Assembly: GCA_964473095.1 (NCBI GenBank)
Contig: CAYYMY010000003.1
Coordinates: 1 to 45,536 of the forward strand
From: an uncultured Oscillospiraceae bacterium
Lineage (GTDB): Bacteria; Bacillota; Clostridia; Peptostreptococcales; Anaerovoracaceae
DNA length: 45,536 bases
Direction: 5' to 3'
Below the pieces are notes generated by a model. The model worked only from the letters and a program-made list of their open reading frames with translations. It was not told the DNA's origin and did no database searches. A program made the translations under genes and the position numbers. Positions 23,657 to 30,496 of the stretch are shown here, piece after piece. Position 1 is the stretch's first letter. The number at the start of each line of letters is the position of its first letter.

Positions 23657-23689
23657 AAAAAGAACCGCATCATCCTGATACGGTTCTTT
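23657..23689 (-). terminator. Intrinsic terminator of the hotdog lyase gene
   Basis: Minus strand AAAGAACCGTATCA-gga-TGATGCGGTTCTTT followed by TT, about 27 bp after the stop. Confidence 0.75.
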
Positions 23690-23716: not shown

Positions 23717-24229
23717 TTATGCGAAAGCCTTTGCTCCAGCTGCCTTAGCATCTGCCGCAAACTTAGGGTCGCCGAATTCAGGTCTCTGAAGTTCCTTAGC
23801 AACCATAAGAGTACCGGTACCGTAAGCGCAGAGTTCAGGAGGATTAACCATTTCAGCTCCCGATCCGTTGATTACATTGCCGTTTTCGTCTTTTGAATCC
23901 TTCATCCACTTATAAGCGAAGAATTTGCAAGTAAAGGAAGTGTTACCAACCTTTTCGATGTATCCACCGTATTCCATCCAGTCACCTGCATATACAGGAG
24001 CAGTGTATCTAACTTCTGAATATCCAACGAATAATGATTCGTCACCAAACAGTCTGATAGCTAATTCAGTACCAACATCTCCCCATGCAGTTACAATGTG
24101 AGCACCTTCTACCAATTCTCCGGCGTAGTGAGCATCTCCCGCAGACATTCTTGCCTTCAGATTAACGTATTCACCGATGATCTTAGGATTATTTTCTCTT
24201 TCCATAATACAATCTAAAGGTGTTTTCAT
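23717..24229 (-). CDS. Hotdog-fold aminoacyl-CoA lyase, beta-alanyl-CoA:ammonia lyase (Acl)/3-aminobutyryl-CoA ammonia lyase (Kal) family
   Basis: MSAGDAHYAGELVEGAHIVTAWGDVGTEL...GDESLFVGY...TAPVYAGDWMEYGGYIEKVGNTSFTCKF matches the DAHYxGxLVxGA / GDVxTEL / APVYxGD / KVGNxS family pattern. WGDVGTEL, MEY and TCKF recall Acl more than Kal (recognised from memory, no search). RBS AGGGAGG. Confidence 0.8.
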   Translation of the reverse strand: MKTPLDCIMERENNPKIIGEYVNLKARMSAGDAHYAGELVEGAHIVTAWGDVGTELAIRLFGDESLFVGYSEVRYTAPVYAGDWMEYGGYIEKVGNTSFTCKFFAYKWMKDSKDENGNVINGSGAEMVNPPELCAYGTGTLMVAKELQRPEFGDPKFAADAKAAGAKAFA

Positions 24230-24292
24230 ATTCTTAGCCCTCCCTTAAACTATTGACTACTAAATATTACTTTGAAGATATTTTGTAAGCTC

Positions 24293-24321
24293 AGTATACT
24301 ATTCCAAACCTTTCTCGTCAA
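24293..24321 (-). promoter_or_regulatory. sigmaA promoter of the hotdog lyase gene
   Basis: Minus strand TTGACG (24316-24321), 17 bp, TATACT (24293-24298). Confidence 0.7.
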
Positions 24322-24521
24322 TGGCATTGTGAAACTTTTATCGGAATTTATTTTTTCTCATTTTTCTGACTTTAATATTGCTCTCAAATCACCGACAAAC
24401 CGATTAAAAAGTACGATTACCTTTAATTTATTGCGTTACAAGATTTTAATAGAGCGCATTTTGTCGCATTTTTGTTACCTACAGTTGTTCCTTTTGATAT
24501 AATATTGTCGAGGTGAAAAAC

Positions 24522-24660
24522 ATGTATCTTAATATAACGCCGCGTGCAAATAACTAAAAATATCTATCAATAATACACGGTTACCGTGACGAAAACGGCA
24601 AAGTTAAGAAAAAGACCATATAATCTCTCGATTATCTCGACGAGTTGCAGAAAAAATATG
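24522..24660 (+). pseudogene. IS1634-family transposase N-terminal remnant with two in-frame stops
   Basis: Manual translation after RBS GAGGTG: MYLNITPRANN*KYLSIIHGYRDENGKVKKKTI*SLDYLDELQKKY, resembling the YLSIxxGYRDxxGKxxxKTIxxLGYLDELxKxY start of IS1634 transposases. Stops at 24555-24557 and 24621-24623. Not in the ORF track. Confidence 0.7.
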
Positions 24661-24715
24661 CGCATAGAAAAAGTCCAACCTCTCTCCTTAAAGCCAGTCT
24701 TTTGTCTACAATCTG

Positions 24716-24741
24716 AGGGACGGCACAATAAAGCCGTCCCT
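24716..24741. terminator. GC-rich hairpin right after the sigma54 activator stop
   Basis: AGGGACGGC-acaataaa-GCCGTCCCT perfect 9 bp stem; no U-tract on the minus strand. Confidence 0.5.
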
Positions 24742-24745
24742 GTTA

Positions 24746-26158
24746 TTATTTTTTCTGTTGTTGCAGTGTTTGTCTTCTGTATTCCGGTATATGTTCCATC
24801 ATGAGTCTGTATGCTTTGGACTGACTTATTCCAAGCATCTTTGCCGCTTTGATGCTGCTTCCGCATATTCTGTATGCGTCCGTTATCATCTTCCTTTCAA
24901 CAGATTTCAGCGCATCATTCAAATTATAATTTTTTTCAACATCAAAAGCTCCTCCTGAATCAATGCCTTTTTCACCGGTATTATCATGCTCCGCAGGGCG
25001 CTGGTCTTTAAGTTCGAACATATATTTGGGCAGATCGTTTATGCTTATATTTTTTTCTTTTGACAACACCACTGTTTTTTCCATTATATTGGAAAGTTCT
25101 CTCAGGTTGCCGGGCCATGAATATTTCTCCATCATATCGTAAACGCCTTTTGATATCGTATGTTCTTTATTGTATTTTTTATTGAACAGCTCAAGATAGT
25201 AATCCATAAATCCTGATATATCCTCTTTTCTTTCACGAAGAGGAGGTACTTTAAGCTCAAAAGTATTCAAGCGAAAATAGAGATCTGCTCTAAAACTATT
25301 GCTTTCCACCATTTGCTTCAAATCTCTGTTGGAAGCTGTTATGATACGGACATCTACTTCCTGCTCTTTTTCACCTCCTACCGGTATGAATTTTTTATAT
25401 TGTATAAAATAGAGAAGTTTAGCCTGTAGATCATAATCTATCTCAGATATCTCATCCATAAACAGGATACCGCCGTCGGCAATTTCCACCATGCCTTTTT
25501 TACCATTCATATTAGCGCCGGAAAAAGCCCCTTTTTTATAACCAAACAATTCAGACTCCATGATATTCGGATTTATACACGCACAGTTTATCGTGACCAA
25601 CGGGCGGTCACTCCTGTTGCCAACGCTGTGTATATAGTTAGCTAGGACATTCTTGCCCGTTCCCGTCTCCCCTGATATGAAACACGGAGAATCTATATCC
25701 TTTATCTTATCTATCATCTCAAGATTTCGCCGCATTTTCCAGTCATTCCCGAAATATGGCTTATCTACATCCTTTGAATCAGATTCTATCTGTATAGGCT
25801 TTGTCTCTATCAGGTTCATCCTATTTATCTGATACATATCGTTGACGTTTTGCGCTACATATTCTATTCCCCCCTTATCGTCTAAAATCGGAGTTGATAT
25901 AGTTATTATGTCATGCCCCAGATTCGTTATCTGACGCCTTACGACCATTTTTTTTGTCCTGTACACTTCAGGAAGGGTGGAATTTCCCCAGTAATGATCG
26001 TCAAGATCTTCAAATTTTTTACCTATAAGCTCCTCCGCTTTAACTCCATAATGTCTTTCCGCAGCTTTATTGACATAAATCATATTATAATCATCATCAA
26101 ATACCATTATTTCATCGTGAAGATTATCTACAATATTTTTGAAATCCTTATAGTCCAT
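24746..26158 (-). CDS. sigma54-dependent enhancer-binding protein (PAS, AAA+, Fis HTH)
   Basis: N-terminal PAS (YVNKAAERHYG...LIGK), Walker A GETGTGK, ESELFGYKKGAFSGA, Walker B LFMDEI, FRADLYFRLN, WPGNLREL, HTH KAAKMLGISQSKAYR. Confidence 0.95.
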   Translation of the reverse strand: MDYKDFKNIVDNLHDEIMVFDDDYNMIYVNKAAERHYGVKAEELIGKKFEDLDDHYWGNSTLPEVYRTKKMVVRRQITNLGHDIITISTPILDDKGGIEYVAQNVNDMYQINRMNLIETKPIQIESDSKDVDKPYFGNDWKMRRNLEMIDKIKDIDSPCFISGETGTGKNVLANYIHSVGNRSDRPLVTINCACINPNIMESELFGYKKGAFSGANMNGKKGMVEIADGGILFMDEISEIDYDLQAKLLYFIQYKKFIPVGGEKEQEVDVRIITASNRDLKQMVESNSFRADLYFRLNTFELKVPPLRERKEDISGFMDYYLELFNKKYNKEHTISKGVYDMMEKYSWPGNLRELSNIMEKTVVLSKEKNISINDLPKYMFELKDQRPAEHDNTGEKGIDSGGAFDVEKNYNLNDALKSVERKMITDAYRICGSSIKAAKMLGISQSKAYRLMMEHIPEYRRQTLQQQKK

Positions 26159-26199
26159 ACAGTACCCTCAAAATAAATAAGCTCCTATATTTGTTGCTA

Positions 26200-26230
26200 A
26201 TTATAACATGGTCACATGACTGTGTGTCAA
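26200..26230 (-). promoter_or_regulatory. Probable sigmaA promoter of the activator gene
   Basis: Extended -10 TGtTATAAT (26200-26208); TTGACA at 26225-26230 overlaps the BCCT stop, with a long 19 bp spacer. Confidence 0.45.
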
Positions 26231-27828
26231 ATTTTACTTTCACCTTCGTTTATACCTTCCTGTATCTCTCCTGCTTTTATAATCTCATCCTTAGTCATTT
26301 TTCCGTAATCTTTGAACATCTCCCGCATAAATCCCCAATAAATTATTGCCAGCACCACTACAAGAGGCAGCCCTGTTGCCAATACTATAGATTTTATCGT
26401 ATCTATATCTGTTCCCGCATATGATATTGCCAACGGTATTGCTATAGTAACAAGACACCATACGAATTTCAGTCCTTTGTTGGGGTCTTCATTTCCTTTA
26501 AGATTCTTAGATATTGTCGAGGACAATGTGAATGAGCACGAGTCAAGCGTTGTTGCCAAGAATAAAATAATAACTACTAAATAGAGCACTATGGCTATCT
26601 TTGAAAACGGCAGAGTATTCATTACTGCAGATGCAATTTCTTCCGATTCTCCATTGGTTATCATTGCGGGTATATCCAAAATACCGTTTATCTTAAGGTT
26701 TTGCCCATATGCTCCTATTATTCCGAAGAAAAGGAATAGTCCTGCAGTTCCTGAAACAAGCATGTTCAGAATTATATCCCTTATCTTTCTTCCTTCAGAT
26801 ATCTTAGCCACGAACAATCCCGTAAACGGGCCGAATACAAACCAGTACACAAGGTAAAATACTGTCCAGTCCTGCGGATATCCGCTCTGCGCAATAGGGT
26901 CAGTATAAGTAGTCATACGGAAGAATTCACTCCCCAGAACGCCCATTGAATTTACGAGCGAATCCAGTATAAACCTTGTCGGTCCGGCAACGAGCATAAA
27001 CAGAAGCAATGCCGCGCAAAAATATACATTCCAGTCGCTTATTTTACGCATTCCTTTTTCTATCCCCACAATATTGGACAGAGAATACAATACGGCAACA
27101 CCGAGAAGAACTATTATAGTCAATGTGAACGAATTTTGTATTCCCAGCAGATCTGCTATCGCAGCCGAAATCGTGCTGCCGGAAGTACCCGCCGTTATAC
27201 ATATGGAGCCTACCGCTGCAAATATAAAAATAAAATCTATTATTTTCCCAACCCAGCTTTTTACTCTCTTTTCTCCAACGGCATATTTACATAAAGCGCT
27301 AAATTTCAATTCACTGTCTTTCTTCACATAATAATGATACGCAAAAGGAAGAACAAAAACACACAGAAGAGCCCATGCCGCAGGTCCCCAGTCATACATG
27401 GAATACGCTAGAGACAATTCGTAATTATATGCCTCTGATACTGCGGCTCCTTCAAGCTGAATTCCTGCATTGAAATGATTTCCCCATTCCAGGAACGCCC
27501 AATATACAGTACCGGCGCCCAACCCTGTAAAAAACATCATCGATACCCAGCTCAACGTTCTGTACTTCGGTTTTTTGTTTCCAAGCCGTATATTTCCGTA
27601 TTTTGATACTCCAAGGATTATAAGAAATACAAGGATTATCACAGTGATAAACTGCATTGTAGAGCCGAAAGTATGCGTAAGCATATTAAGCAGATTTCCT
27701 GCTATCTCTTTGCCTTTGTCCGGCCATACAGTTAATCCTACGACCATCAAAGCTACGATAAAAACACTGACAATCATCAGTCCTACTTCATATTTTTCAG
27801 TTAATTTCGTTTTCTGCCTGTTCTCCAC
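26227..27828 (-). CDS. BCCT family (betaine/carnitine/choline) transporter
   Basis: About 12 TMs; SKYGNIRLG, SWVSMMFFTGLGAG, GIEKGMRKIS, WTVFY...FVAKISEGR, FLATTLDS. Confidence 0.93.
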   Translation of the reverse strand: MENRQKTKLTEKYEVGLMIVSVFIVALMVVGLTVWPDKGKEIAGNLLNMLTHTFGSTMQFITVIILVFLIILGVSKYGNIRLGNKKPKYRTLSWVSMMFFTGLGAGTVYWAFLEWGNHFNAGIQLEGAAVSEAYNYELSLAYSMYDWGPAAWALLCVFVLPFAYHYYVKKDSELKFSALCKYAVGEKRVKSWVGKIIDFIFIFAAVGSICITAGTSGSTISAAIADLLGIQNSFTLTIIVLLGVAVLYSLSNIVGIEKGMRKISDWNVYFCAALLLFMLVAGPTRFILDSLVNSMGVLGSEFFRMTTYTDPIAQSGYPQDWTVFYLVYWFVFGPFTGLFVAKISEGRKIRDIILNMLVSGTAGLFLFFGIIGAYGQNLKINGILDIPAMITNGESEEIASAVMNTLPFSKIAIVLYLVVIILFLATTLDSCSFTLSSTISKNLKGNEDPNKGLKFVWCLVTIAIPLAISYAGTDIDTIKSIVLATGLPLVVVLAIIYWGFMREMFKDYGKMTKDEIIKAGEIQEGINEGESKI

Positions 27829-27873
27829 GATACTACCTCCAGATTTTATTCCATATATGCTGAATTATTTAAA

Positions 27874-29055
27874 TCATATTATCCCTTCAACTCTCAGTGA
27901 TTCTATTTTATTTTTTTCATATCCTAGCTTCGTCATTATTTCTTCCGTATTTTCTCCAAGAAGAGGTGATGCAATATCCGTAGAAGGGCTTGCTTCTGAG
28001 AGCTTTATCGGATTTCCCACTAGCTTTATATCACCAAGCACGGGATCATCCACTGTTATCACCATATCCCTTGCTATCAGATGTTCATCACTTAGAGCTT
28101 CTTCTATCCCCATAACATGAGATGCTGCTATCCCTGCATCGTTCAGCCTTTTTTCCGCTTCATACATGCTGATATTTTTAAATCTTTTTTCTATTTCATA
28201 CGCCAGATCATCTGCATTCTCAAGCCGCATATCCTTTGAAGAAAATCGCTCATCCCCTTTAAGCTCCTCCATTTCCAAAACACTGCAGAAGTCTTCCCAT
28301 TGCTTACTATCTTTAACTGATACGGCAATGTATCCGTCCTCTGTTTTATAAACATCTCCCGGCGCGTAATACAAGCTTCTGTTTCCCCGTCTTCCGATAC
28401 ATTTGCCTTTATTTAAATATTCCATGATAGGATATTCCAGCGTCGTTATAAGAGAACCCAACATAGTCGCATCCACCTTTTGTCCCTCCCCTGTTTTTAA
28501 ACGATGATAATACGCAGTCAATATCCCCATAAGAAGTATGAGTCCTGAATAACTGTCCCCTATAGCCGGTCCGATTTTCGCCGGATCTTTATCTGCAAAT
28601 CCGTTTATATCCATTACGCCGCTCATGCTTTGAATAACATTGTCGTATGCCGCATAGGAAGAGAGTTCTCCTTTTACTCCAAACCCTGAAAGTTCTGCAT
28701 ATATGATGTCTTTTTTTACTTCCTTCATTTTTTCATATCCAATTCCGTATCTCTCCATCGTGCCTGCTTTAAAATTGGATATTACGATATCAGCATCTTT
28801 GAGCAGCTCAAATATGATATTTCTGCCTTCTTCACTCGCAATATTCAGTGTGAGACTTCTCTTTCCTCTGTTGAAAGATGCGTAATACCCGCTGTATCCA
28901 TTTTTGAAAGGTCCCCATGTCCTCGACTGATCTCCGCCTTCTACTCTTTCTATCTTTATTACTTCCGCGCCGTAATCAGCAAGATTCATAGAACAAAAAG
29001 GGCCTGAATAAGCATGTGTAAAATCTATAACTTTCACATCATCAAAAATTGCCAT
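27874..29055 (-). CDS. Family III (CaiB/BaiF) CoA-transferase, catalytic Asp present
   Basis: VIDFTHAYSGPFCSMNLADYGAEVIKIER, NRGKRSLTLN, ADIVISNFKAG, SGFG, PAIGDSYSG (Asp codon 28555-28557), SPLLGENT. Confidence 0.93.
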   Translation of the reverse strand: MAIFDDVKVIDFTHAYSGPFCSMNLADYGAEVIKIERVEGGDQSRTWGPFKNGYSGYYASFNRGKRSLTLNIASEEGRNIIFELLKDADIVISNFKAGTMERYGIGYEKMKEVKKDIIYAELSGFGVKGELSSYAAYDNVIQSMSGVMDINGFADKDPAKIGPAIGDSYSGLILLMGILTAYYHRLKTGEGQKVDATMLGSLITTLEYPIMEYLNKGKCIGRRGNRSLYYAPGDVYKTEDGYIAVSVKDSKQWEDFCSVLEMEELKGDERFSSKDMRLENADDLAYEIEKRFKNISMYEAEKRLNDAGIAASHVMGIEEALSDEHLIARDMVITVDDPVLGDIKLVGNPIKLSEASPSTDIASPLLGENTEEIMTKLGYEKNKIESLRVEGII

Positions 29056-29065
29056 GACGTTCCTC

Positions 29066-30250
29066 CTAAATCACTTTATTTCTCTTTAACAGCTCAATCG
29101 CTTCCTCACTCATTCCTATAATGCCGCATAACTCTGCGGTATCCTGCCCCAGATCAGGCGAATCTCCAAAAATAGCTGCAGGTGTTTTTTCCAGAGAAAA
29201 CGGAAGCGCCGGAAATTTCATCTCACCTATGTCTGTGCAGTCTCTATTGAGAATAAATCCGTTTTCCACCGTATTTGGCATGTCAGCGATTTCATCTACT
29301 GCCAACACGGCGCAGCACGGTATACCTTTCTCGCGGCATTTATATTCGATTTCAAATTTACTCATTTTCTCTATTATCTTCGCTAATTCAGGTCTCAGGA
29401 AATTCTCGTAATTTTCACATCTTTTTTCATTGGTGAGATATTTATCATCATCCTTCAAATATTCCATCCCCATGACATCGCAAAAATATTCCCACTGTCT
29501 TTGAGTTGCAACTCCTATTGTGACGTATCCGTCTTTCGTGCGGTAAGTATCGTAAGGTGCGCATGAAGGATCATCATTTCCCTTTCTTGTCTGAATTTCT
29601 CCCGTTAGAGAAGCCGCAACCGGTGCAGTTTCTATACATGAGAAAATTGAATCCTGCAGGGATATATCCACAGCCTGTCCAATCTTTCTGTTTTTCTTTT
29701 CTATAAGCGCCATCAAAATCCCTGAAGTCAGATATCCAGCCGCATAATGCTCCATAAGTGAAGGTGCGCTGCTGACCGGATAGTCGTTTTTGGTTCCCGT
29801 CATATCCATCGCAACCCCGAGGGCCTGTACCGACAGACTGCTTGAAGGTCTGTCCTTCATAGGTCCGCTCATACCGAAAGGCGTACAGGAAGCATATATT
29901 ATATCTTTCTTCACTTTTTTTATGTGCTCATATCCCAGTCCCAACGACCTTATCTCTCCCGGAGTACCATCTACACATATCACGTCAAAATATTCAACGA
30001 GCTTTAATAAAATATCCCGTCCTTCCTTTTTTTCAACGTTTAAAGTCATACTTTTCTTCCCGCTGTTAAGATAGTTGAAATAGCAACTTTTTCCGCCTTT
30101 TAAAGGCTCCCAGTTTCTTATCCTGCTTCCTCCTTCAGGTGCTTCAACGCACACTACTTCCGCACCGAATGACTTCAAATACATCGTTGCAAGATTTCCC
30201 GCCAAACCGCTGCTTAAATCTAAAATTTTAATATCGCTCAACGGCAACAT
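29066..30250 (-). CDS. Family III CoA-transferase-like subunit, catalytic Asp replaced by Glu
   Basis: ILDLSSGLAG...FGAEVVCVEAP, NSGKKSMTLN, PFGMSGP, GQAVDISL, SPDLGQDT. PSLMEHYAA aligns with PAIGDSYSG of the neighbouring gene. Confidence 0.88.
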   Translation of the reverse strand: MLPLSDIKILDLSSGLAGNLATMYLKSFGAEVVCVEAPEGGSRIRNWEPLKGGKSCYFNYLNSGKKSMTLNVEKKEGRDILLKLVEYFDVICVDGTPGEIRSLGLGYEHIKKVKKDIIYASCTPFGMSGPMKDRPSSSLSVQALGVAMDMTGTKNDYPVSSAPSLMEHYAAGYLTSGILMALIEKKNRKIGQAVDISLQDSIFSCIETAPVAASLTGEIQTRKGNDDPSCAPYDTYRTKDGYVTIGVATQRQWEYFCDVMGMEYLKDDDKYLTNEKRCENYENFLRPELAKIIEKMSKFEIEYKCREKGIPCCAVLAVDEIADMPNTVENGFILNRDCTDIGEMKFPALPFSLEKTPAAIFGDSPDLGQDTAELCGIIGMSEEAIELLKRNKVI

Positions 30251-30304
30251 ACATTTCCCTCCTATCCGCTTTTTATTGCATTTTTAATATTCACAGCATA
30301 TTAA

Positions 30305-30321
30305 AGCAAATGTTATGCCAA
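30305..30321 (-). promoter_or_regulatory. sigma54 (-24/-12) promoter
   Basis: Minus strand TTGGCATAACATTTGCT = GG-N10-GC, close to YTGGCACGNNNNTTGCW, about 55 bp upstream of the first CoA-transferase start. Confidence 0.88.
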
Positions 30322-30410
30322 TTTAAAAACGTCTATTTTTCAACGAAAAAAGCAATCATTTACCACGACTTATTCATTTCAGACTAATTTCTGTCTTCAA
30401 AAACTAAAAA

Positions 30411-30452
30411 AAGCTATTCAGATATGACTAATTAGTCATATCTGAATAGCTT
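30411..30452. repeat. Perfect 42 bp palindrome: ychF terminator and/or activator binding sites
   Basis: AAGCTATTCAGATATGACTAATTAGTCATATCTGAATAGCTT is fully self-complementary; followed by a T-run on the minus strand (A-run at 30406-30412). Confidence 0.8.
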
Positions 30453-30496
30453 CCATTTCAACATTCATACTTTTAACAAAATATCATAAAAAATAT

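What the first reader, a model, noticed from the sequence alone, without database searches (positions are those of the whole stretch)
23717..30452. Candidate new anaerobic beta-amino/onium acid catabolic system: sigma54-controlled CoA-transferase pair, BCCT and Acl-type hotdog lyase
Seen: a -24/-12 promoter, two tandem family III CoA-transferase genes, a BCCT transporter, a PAS-type sigma54 activator and a co-oriented Acl/Kal-family hotdog lyase, in a block between housekeeping genes. Known: Acl eliminates NH3 from beta-alanyl-CoA to give acryloyl-CoA. The Emergencia bbu/gbu cluster uses two family III CoA-transferases plus a BCCT, but with an acyl-CoA-dehydrogenase-like TMA lyase. DMSP catabolism uses DddD (tandem CaiB domains) with the BCCT DddT. 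Inference: this locus imports a beta-substituted acid (beta-alanine, N-methylated beta-alanines or beta-alanine betaine, DMSP, 3-aminobutyrate), activates it to the CoA ester and beta-eliminates NH3, methylamines, TMA or DMS with a cofactor-free hotdog enzyme. A TMA or DMS product would be a route distinct from CutC, CntA and BbuA. Caveats: the lyase has its own sigmaA promoter and is separated by an IS scar, so the linkage could be incidental, and no acryloyl-CoA reductase or ETF is in the window.
Basis: partly seen in the sequence, partly recalled or inferred. Interest (0 to 1): 0.85.

Follow-up and report, generated by a model that had tools for sequence, protein, structure and literature searches.

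The report
CoA-transferase cassette beside unrelated hotdog lyase
A four-gene cassette that likely imports and activates an unknown amine- or betaine-type acid sits next to a separately promoted lyase-like gene, and related genomes carry each of the two without the other, so the proposed new five-gene pathway is not supported here.

Summary
All five genes, the -24/-12 site and the IS scar are there. They are two units, not one system. The cassette (sigma54 promoter, CoA-transferases A and B, BCCT, PAS activator) recurs without a lyase. G013 has it at the same ychF-mraZ site with no hotdog gene there. Complete genome G494 has the orthologous transferase pair and no Acl/Kal-family gene found. 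The hotdog clade occurs in 21 of 77 genus genomes; the transferase-A orthologue in 2. None of the other 20 has the cassette upstream of the hotdog. The hotdog keeps its own sigmaA-type promoter in 16 of 17 upstream regions. It fits better with an acryloyl-CoA reductase/Etf/CoA-transferase operon elsewhere in this genome. Transferase A has Glu for the catalytic Asp, as in bbu-order clusters, so the pair is likely a heterodimer of unknown substrate. Those are the better leads. Verdict: new variant of a known kind, interest 0.32.

The parts
30409..30454 (-). 20-bp hairpin with T tail, likely the ychF terminator that isolates the cassette
30306..30320 (-). sigma54 -24/-12 promoter TGGCA-N6-TTGC, 70 bases upstream of transferase A
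   Evidence: present in 9 of 10 related cassettes
29066..30250 (-). family III CoA-transferase subunit A; Glu167 in the column of the catalytic Asp
27874..29055 (-). family III CoA-transferase subunit B; Asp167 retained; 32% identical to A
26227..27828 (-). BCCT transporter; best solved relative DddT (E 9e-91); cage W147/Y328/W329/F332
24746..26158 (-). PAS-AAA-HTH sigma54 enhancer-binding activator, GAFSGA loop at residue 210
24716..24741 (.). GC-rich hairpin after the activator; its T run is on the + strand side, so it is not a clear terminator of the cassette
24422..24658 (+). broken 5' end of an IS1634-family transposase gene (two stops, truncated); intact in G062, G088, G013
24293..24321 (-). 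sigmaA-type promoter of the hotdog gene, conserved with the gene at other chromosomal sites
23717..24229 (-). Acl/Kal-family hotdog protein, 170 aa; separate unit; own clade, neither Acl nor Kal orthologue
23659..23689 (-). terminator-like hairpin after the hotdog gene

Best explanation
The region holds two independent units side by side at a variable site between ychF and mraZ: a four-gene sigma54 cassette that likely imports an unidentified amino- or betaine-type acid and likely turns it into its CoA ester, and a separately promoted hotdog gene that likely acts as a beta-aminoacyl-CoA ammonia-lyase in another pathway. Cassette (all steps inferred): the PAS activator senses the substrate and fires the -24/-12 promoter. 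The BCCT takes the acid up. Transferases A and B form a BbuBC-like heterodimer in which B supplies the catalytic Asp, and they move CoA from a short-chain acyl-CoA onto the acid. The next step is done by an enzyme encoded elsewhere and need not be an Acl-type elimination. Hotdog (inferred): it removes ammonia from beta-alanyl-CoA or a substituted form such as 3-aminoisobutyryl-CoA, probably supplied by pyrimidine reduction and a single Act-like CoA-transferase. The enoyl-CoA is then reduced by the AcrC/Etf operon on contig C2.
For: Shown: hotdog clade (E<=1e-55) in 21 of 77 genus genomes, transferase-A orthologue (E<=1e-110) in 2 of 77. In all 20 other hotdog genomes the upstream neighbour is not the cassette, and no family III transferase or BCCT lies in the stretch fetched (several contigs are short). 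G062 and G088 have IS-hotdog-sfsA-mraZ with other cargo upstream, and their family III genes are not of the cassette clade. G013 has the cassette and the IS before mraZ with no hotdog; its hotdog follows ahcY. G494 (1 contig, 99% complete) has activator-A(49%)-B(59%)-BCCT, no hotdog in 20 kb, and no Acl/Kal match (best family E 0.0016). Sister cassettes: 0 of 10 have a hotdog within 4 kb on the same strand (three have short flanks, three were checked on wide loci). Hotdog promoter conserved in 16 of 17 upstream regions, 0 of 17 with a -24/-12 site. The C2 acyl-CoA dehydrogenase passes the AcrC cut-off, 657.9 against 640; the transferase of that operon co-occurs with the hotdog clade in 17 of 21 genomes (kin are not independent). 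The hotdog's sister group (71-82%) lies directly before a single CoA-transferase in L072, L076, L197. G000 has two hydantoinases, a carbamoylase-family amidase and an NCS1 permease; the hotdog abuts an NCS1 permease in G061, G093, G100. Glu replaces Asp in 11 of 11 transferase-A clade rows and in the first transferase of bbu-order clusters. BbuB and BbuC are both needed for activity (10.1101/2021.01.25.428109, passages).
Against: Both genus genomes with the cassette (G000, G013) also carry the hotdog clade and the AcrC operon, so use in trans remains possible. The IS sits at this site in four species, so cassette and hotdog may both be old residents with later losses, not a recent accident. 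The BCCT's best solved relative is the DMSP importer DddT, and all four cage positions stay aromatic. G494's BCCT is only 34% identical to the window's, so its substrate may differ. A related transferase-pair clade does carry a hotdog in 14 of 20 loci. Four hotdog genomes (G005, G061, G093, G100) have no C2-type transferase match and no AcrC over the cut-off, and the C2 operon has its own double hotdog, so the hotdog's partner is not settled. The assembly is 1.15 Mb against about 1.8 Mb for its closest relative, so partner genes may be missing. No substrate was tested.
Confidence: 0.68

Rival explanations
1. One reading: the cassette activates beta-alanine betaine, DMSP or an N-alkyl-beta-alanine; this hotdog (or the double hotdog on C2) eliminates TMA, DMS or an amine; AcrC/Etf reduces acryloyl-CoA to propionyl-CoA.
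For: Co-orientation; BCCT nearest DddT with an aromatic cage; AcrC in the genome; both genus carriers of the cassette have hotdog and AcrC operon; related transferase pairs do sit with hotdogs.
Against: No shared neighbourhood in 20 of 20 other hotdog genomes; separate conserved promoters; G494 lacks the lyase family; DddT's critical W320 is Tyr and Y112 is Asn here; the cage test is weak, since the BCCT of a bbu-order cluster also lacks the Trp cage.
Confidence: 0.14
2. The cassette serves a cai-like or beta-oxidation route for a C4-C5 amino or betaine acid (crotonobetaine, gamma-butyrobetaine, carnitine, 4-aminobutyrate or 5-aminovalerate type): CoA on, oxidation or reduction by an acyl-CoA dehydrogenase with Etf, CoA off, product out. 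This refines the best explanation at its open step.
For: Sister cassettes lie beside thiolase, hydroxybutyryl-CoA dehydrogenase-like, acyl-CoA dehydrogenase and Etf genes in G557, G602, G144, and beside a beta-keto acid cleavage enzyme and a family I transferase-like pair in G513 (some labels read from N-terminal sequence); same Glu/Asp pattern as the bbu-order pair.
Against: Those neighbours belong to the sister clade (39-41% to transferase A). The window has none. G000 has only two acyl-CoA dehydrogenases, 30% and 32% identical to the BbuA-like protein.
Confidence: 0.3
3. The cassette is decaying or silent cargo; transferase A is a dead copy.
For: Rare in the genus (2 of 77); adjacent IS is broken; A lacks the Asp.
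Against: All four frames are intact; the Glu is conserved in 11 of 11 clade rows including distant taxa; promoter conserved.
Confidence: 0.05

Closest known systems
bbu/gbu cluster of Emergencia timonensis (BbuABCDEF; 10.1101/2021.01.25.428109, abstract and passages read)
   Same: Two family III transferases in tandem plus a BCCT; both subunits needed in BbuBC; first subunit with Glu and second with Asp in clusters of bbu gene order (L206, L207).
   Different: No BbuA, ferredoxin or thioesterase; a sigma54 activator instead; only 34% and 37% identity to the bbu-order pair and 31% to its BCCT. The bbu reference is identified by gene order, not by a named sequence.
beta-alanyl-CoA:ammonia lyase Acl2 with Act of Anaerotignum propionicum (PDB 4mtu; PMC13067684, passages)
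   Same: Hotdog is in this family: E 4e-38, about 52% identity (69 of 132, counted by hand); motifs DAHY, WGD.GTE, APVY.GD shared.
   Different: Separate clade; much closer Acl orthologues (E 3e-76) coexist with it in G005, G009, G016, G095; N-terminal extension; no Act next to it.
3-aminobutyryl-CoA ammonia-lyase Kal (lysine fermentation)
   Same: Best NCBIfam hit.
   Different: 115.5 bits against cut-off 160; no BKACE-family (kce) gene found in G000; separate clade.
DddT/DddD DMSP catabolism (PMC13270143, passages)
   Same: DddT is the best PDB hit of the BCCT; W105, G101, W140, W313, F316, Y317, W321 positions kept.
   Different: W320 to Tyr, Y324 to Phe, Y112 to Asn, S204 to Thr; transferases are separate genes; no comparison with the DddD sequence was run.
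BbsEF and other two-subunit family III CoA-transferases; E. coli caiTABCD
   Same: Two-subunit transferase (9fn0 A and B both hit); BCCT plus family III transferase as in cai (recalled).
   Different: All NCBIfam family III models are below cut-off; no dehydrogenase or hydratase in the operon.

Membership tests
bbu/gbu gamma-butyrobetaine TMA-lyase cluster | two tandem family III CoA-transferases | tested here: met
bbu/gbu gamma-butyrobetaine TMA-lyase cluster | BCCT transporter in the cluster | tested here: met
   31% to the bbu-order BCCT
bbu/gbu gamma-butyrobetaine TMA-lyase cluster | BbuA acyl-CoA-dehydrogenase-like TMA-lyase | tested here: not met
   none in window; genome's two dehydrogenases 30% and 32% to the L206 protein
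bbu/gbu gamma-butyrobetaine TMA-lyase cluster | ferredoxin and thioesterase genes; orthology of the transferases | tested here: not met
   no such genes in the block; 34% and 37% identity
family III CoA-transferase, two-subunit type | PF02515 over cut-off in both genes | tested here: met
   390 and 301 bits
family III CoA-transferase, two-subunit type | catalytic Asp (its role is recalled knowledge) | tested here: met
   Asp167 in B; Glu167 in A
family III CoA-transferase, two-subunit type | A and B form a complex and both are needed | not tested
   no complex prediction sent; inferred from BbuBC
[quoted passage not shown] | Acl/Kal-type hotdog sequence | tested here: met
[quoted passage not shown] | orthology to Acl2 | tested here: not met
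   own clade; closer Acl orthologues in the same genomes
[quoted passage not shown] | ammonia elimination from beta-alanyl-CoA | not testable with these tools
   needs an assay
Kal (lysine fermentation) | NF052388 over cut-off; kce in the genome | tested here: not met
DddT-type DMSP importer | cage W140/W320/W321/Y324 and entry residues | tested here: inconclusive
   W147/Y328/W329/F332; Y112 lost
sigma54-dependent operon | -24/-12 site, enhancer-binding activator, rpoN | tested here: met
   loop reads GAFSGA
proposed five-gene beta-elimination system | conserved linkage of this hotdog clade to the transferase/BCCT block | tested here: not met
   0 of 20 other hotdog genomes; 0 of 2 other cassette-clade genomes

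The most novel reading that the evidence does not exclude
The cassette activates an onium or N-alkylated beta-alanine (beta-alanine betaine, DMSP), and a cofactor-free Acl-family hotdog of this genome cleaves the CoA ester in trans to TMA, DMS or an amine plus acryloyl-CoA for the AcrC/Etf operon: an anaerobic TMA- or DMS-forming route distinct from CutC, CntA and BbuA. The same chemistry looks more likely for G013:C37, where a bbu-like pair (49% and 45%) and a BCCT are followed by two hotdogs and no BbuA.
Probability: 0.14. Interest if true: 0.78.

Novelty: new variant of a known kind. Interest (0 to 1): 0.32.

Why it matters
As it stands: an uncharacterised, conserved sigma54 uptake-and-activation cassette of the BbuBC type in anaerobic clostridia, and an untested Acl-like lyase clade. 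Finding the cassette's substrate would add an amine or betaine to the known menu of these anaerobes. If a hotdog enzyme released TMA or DMS from a CoA ester, it would be a new cofactor-free source of a disease-linked or climate-active gas. The work here moves that question to operons in relatives where the linkage is real.

Tried and rejected
One search used a wrong spacer (N7) and missed the promoter; one search corrected it. The genome-contig scan with transferase A gave one distant locus (28%). The family search with transferase B at E<=1e-125 found only G000 in 301 genomes (G013 was not in that draw). Sequencing runs: none was listed, so expression was not examined. The 186-aa gene that often precedes the hotdog in relatives has no Pfam, NCBIfam or useful Atlas hit and was not found in G000. 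The ends of G000 contigs C31 and C10 show no overlap; that they hold one split cassette is inferred from complementary halves (residues 1-195 and 201-393) and the 94% orthologue in G062. BCCT cage residues were tried as a substrate predictor and judged weak. Both trees are quick trees without bootstrap; the output was cut by about 900 characters, and four of the affected loci were reprinted. No structure or complex prediction was run. Paper searches listed no paper on this cassette or on a hotdog TMA/DMS lyase; the library lacks most subscription papers, and only listings were seen for papers not cited. PMC10818641 (passages) said nothing on the BbsEF catalytic residue. PMC12026204 (passages) confirmed gbuABCE as the essential genes. 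No supplements were opened; those of the bbu preprint are closed and would hold the BbuB/C sequences. Earlier scan findings: none returned. Rejected: Kal in lysine fermentation; bbu membership; pseudogene.
Full report
Observation. The five frames, their families and their order are as described. The -24/-12 site lies 70 bases before transferase A. One such match per window is common by chance (27 of 100 shuffles), but the site recurs before the first transferase in 9 of 10 related cassettes, and rpoN is in the genome. The IS scar is the broken 5' end of an IS1634 transposase gene that is intact in G062, G088 and G013. The genome is an anaerobic clostridium by its named protein neighbours (inference). 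The assembly is 1.15 Mb in 66 contigs, against about 1.8 Mb for the closest relative G062, so absences in it are soft.

The linkage test. The hotdog clade is in 21 of 77 genus genomes and the transferase-A orthologue in 2 of 77, G000 included. I fetched the neighbourhood of all 20 other hotdog genomes. The gene sits after ahcY, near ribF, before an NCS1 permease, after an unknown 186-aa gene, between an aldehyde dehydrogenase and a true acl, or before sfsA-mraZ. In none is the upstream neighbour the cassette, and no family III transferase or BCCT is in the stretch held; several contigs are short. The two relatives that share the window's site, G062 and G088, read cargo-IS-hotdog-sfsA-mraZ, with phage-like genes or a nitrilase-like/DASS/regulator set as cargo. 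G013 reads ychF-A-B on one contig and BCCT-activator-IS-mraZ on another, with no hotdog before mraZ; its hotdog follows ahcY. G494, a single-contig genome, has activator-A-B-BCCT and no Acl/Kal-family gene found by protein or by family search. The hotdog carries a TTGAC-17-TAnnnT promoter in 16 of 17 upstream regions and a -24/-12 site in none. Each unit therefore exists without the other. The adjacency may be old, but it is not fixed.

The cassette. Transferase pairs split into a first-gene and a second-gene clade (quick tree). In the window's first-gene subclade, 11 of 11 rows have Glu where the family has its catalytic Asp; B keeps Asp167. Clusters with the exact bbu gene order found in this family (L206, L207, L208) show the same Glu/Asp pattern, and BbuB and BbuC are both required (10.1101/2021.01.25.428109, passages). 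A heterodimer is therefore likely. Identity to the bbu-order pair is only 34% and 37%, and BbuA, ferredoxin and thioesterase are missing, so this is not a bbu cluster. A sister cassette of the same architecture, with a BCCT 64-66% identical where it was seen, occurs again in G000 (C10/C31) and in G013, G062, G144, G251, G602, G557; with G513, G155 and G383, 0 of 10 such pairs have a hotdog within 4 kb on the same strand. Several lie beside thiolase, acyl-CoA dehydrogenase and Etf genes. The BCCT's best solved relative is DddT (E 9e-91; CaiT 7e-58). Against the DMSP-binding residues in PMC13270143 (passages), the cage stays aromatic but the critical W320 is Tyr and Y112 is Asn. A bbu-order BCCT also lacks the Trp cage, so this neither names nor excludes a betaine. 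An amino or onium acid is the likely class; the compound is open.

The hotdog. It is about 52% identical to Acl2 (hand count), below the Kal cut-off, and forms its own clade. Much closer Acl orthologues coexist with it in four genomes, which hints at a different substrate such as 3-aminoisobutyryl-CoA (inference). Its nearest sister proteins precede a single CoA-transferase, with MerR nearby in two of three cases (L072, L076, L197), the act-acl pattern (PMC13067684, passages). G000 has an AcrC-Etf-transferase-double hotdog-MerR operon on C2, with AcrC over its cut-off. That operon's transferase co-occurs with the hotdog clade in 17 of 21 genomes each way. The four hotdog genomes without it also lack an AcrC over cut-off, which counts against a strict partnership. 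Hydantoinases, a carbamoylase-family amidase and an NCS1 permease give a plausible source of beta-alanine or 3-aminoisobutyrate. No kce was found.

G013:C37 (L059) reads BCCT-transferase-transferase-hotdog-hotdog beside a MerR gene, and its pair is 49% and 45% identical to the bbu-order pair, with no BbuA in the operon. G013:C20 and G088:C26 read hotdog-transferase-BCCT with MerR. A third transferase-pair clade has a divergent hotdog (29% to the window's) on the same strand in 14 of 20 loci, with NhaC, MFS or APC-like transporters and sigma54 activators. These are true operons and better targets than the window.

Novelty and score. Nine paper searches listed nothing on this cassette or on a hotdog TMA/DMS lyase, within a library that lacks most subscription papers. 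Every part belongs to a known kind, and the combination that made the finding striking fails the synteny test. What remains is an uncharacterised BbuBC-type cassette and an untested Acl-like clade. Interest 0.32; the in-trans TMA/DMS reading has probability 0.14 and would merit 0.78.

Noticed in passing
L059:8891-15225 (G013:C37): BCCT, bbu-like transferase pair (49% and 45% to the bbu-order pair), two hotdog genes and a MerR gene, with no BbuA: the best candidate for a hotdog-based amine or TMA lyase system.
   Followed up: partly
L060, L061, L062, L178-L180, L183, L185-L191: Widespread operon of a transferase pair, a divergent Kal/Acl-like hotdog, a transporter and a sigma54 activator (14 of 20 loci), often with alanine dehydrogenase-like, saccharopine dehydrogenase-like, acyl-CoA dehydrogenase and Etf genes. 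N- or S-carboxyethyl compounds are a speculative substrate class.
   Followed up: partly
L118:1794-8219 (G000:C2:44793-51218): AcrC (over cut-off), EtfB, EtfA, single family III transferase, fused double hotdog and MerR; the transferase is conserved in 21 of 77 genus genomes.
   Followed up: partly
L121:2-1794 and L122:2501-6198 (G000:C10 start, C31 end): Second transferase-pair/BCCT/PAS-sigma54 cassette in the same genome, with its own -24/-12 site and no lyase; both subunits' Asp status is known only for the first gene (Asp).
   Followed up: partly
L120:3484-8098 (G000:C21): Third PAS-sigma54 activator ahead of a SauS-like acylating aldehyde dehydrogenase and a class III aminotransferase (PRK06062 over cut-off); could make an aminoacyl- or sulfoacyl-CoA without a transferase.
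   Followed up: no
L051:8480-11015 and L052, L054, L056, L070, L093, L100-L102: A 186-aa protein with no family hit precedes the hotdog in about ten loci, often after a CoA-acylating aldehyde dehydrogenase and sometimes a true acl; not found in G000.
   Followed up: partly
window 24422-24658; L092:5237-6748; L096:6950-8437; L129:7001-8599: An IS1634-family transposase gene holds the same chromosomal site in four species while the cargo beside it changes.
   Followed up: partly
L207:3236-5617, L208:5370-7751, L182:6329-8863: Natural fusions of the two transferase subunits (793 aa in bbu-order clusters; 844 aa before a Kal-like hotdog).
   Followed up: no
L050, L053, L100, L104:7788-8702, L205: Tandem duplicated hotdog genes; G031 has two other Acl-like genes at the ychF-mraZ site.
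   Followed up: no
window 26200-26230 (-): TTGACA-19-TATAAT before the activator gene, a possible own promoter with a long spacer; not flagged by the scan.
   Followed up: no
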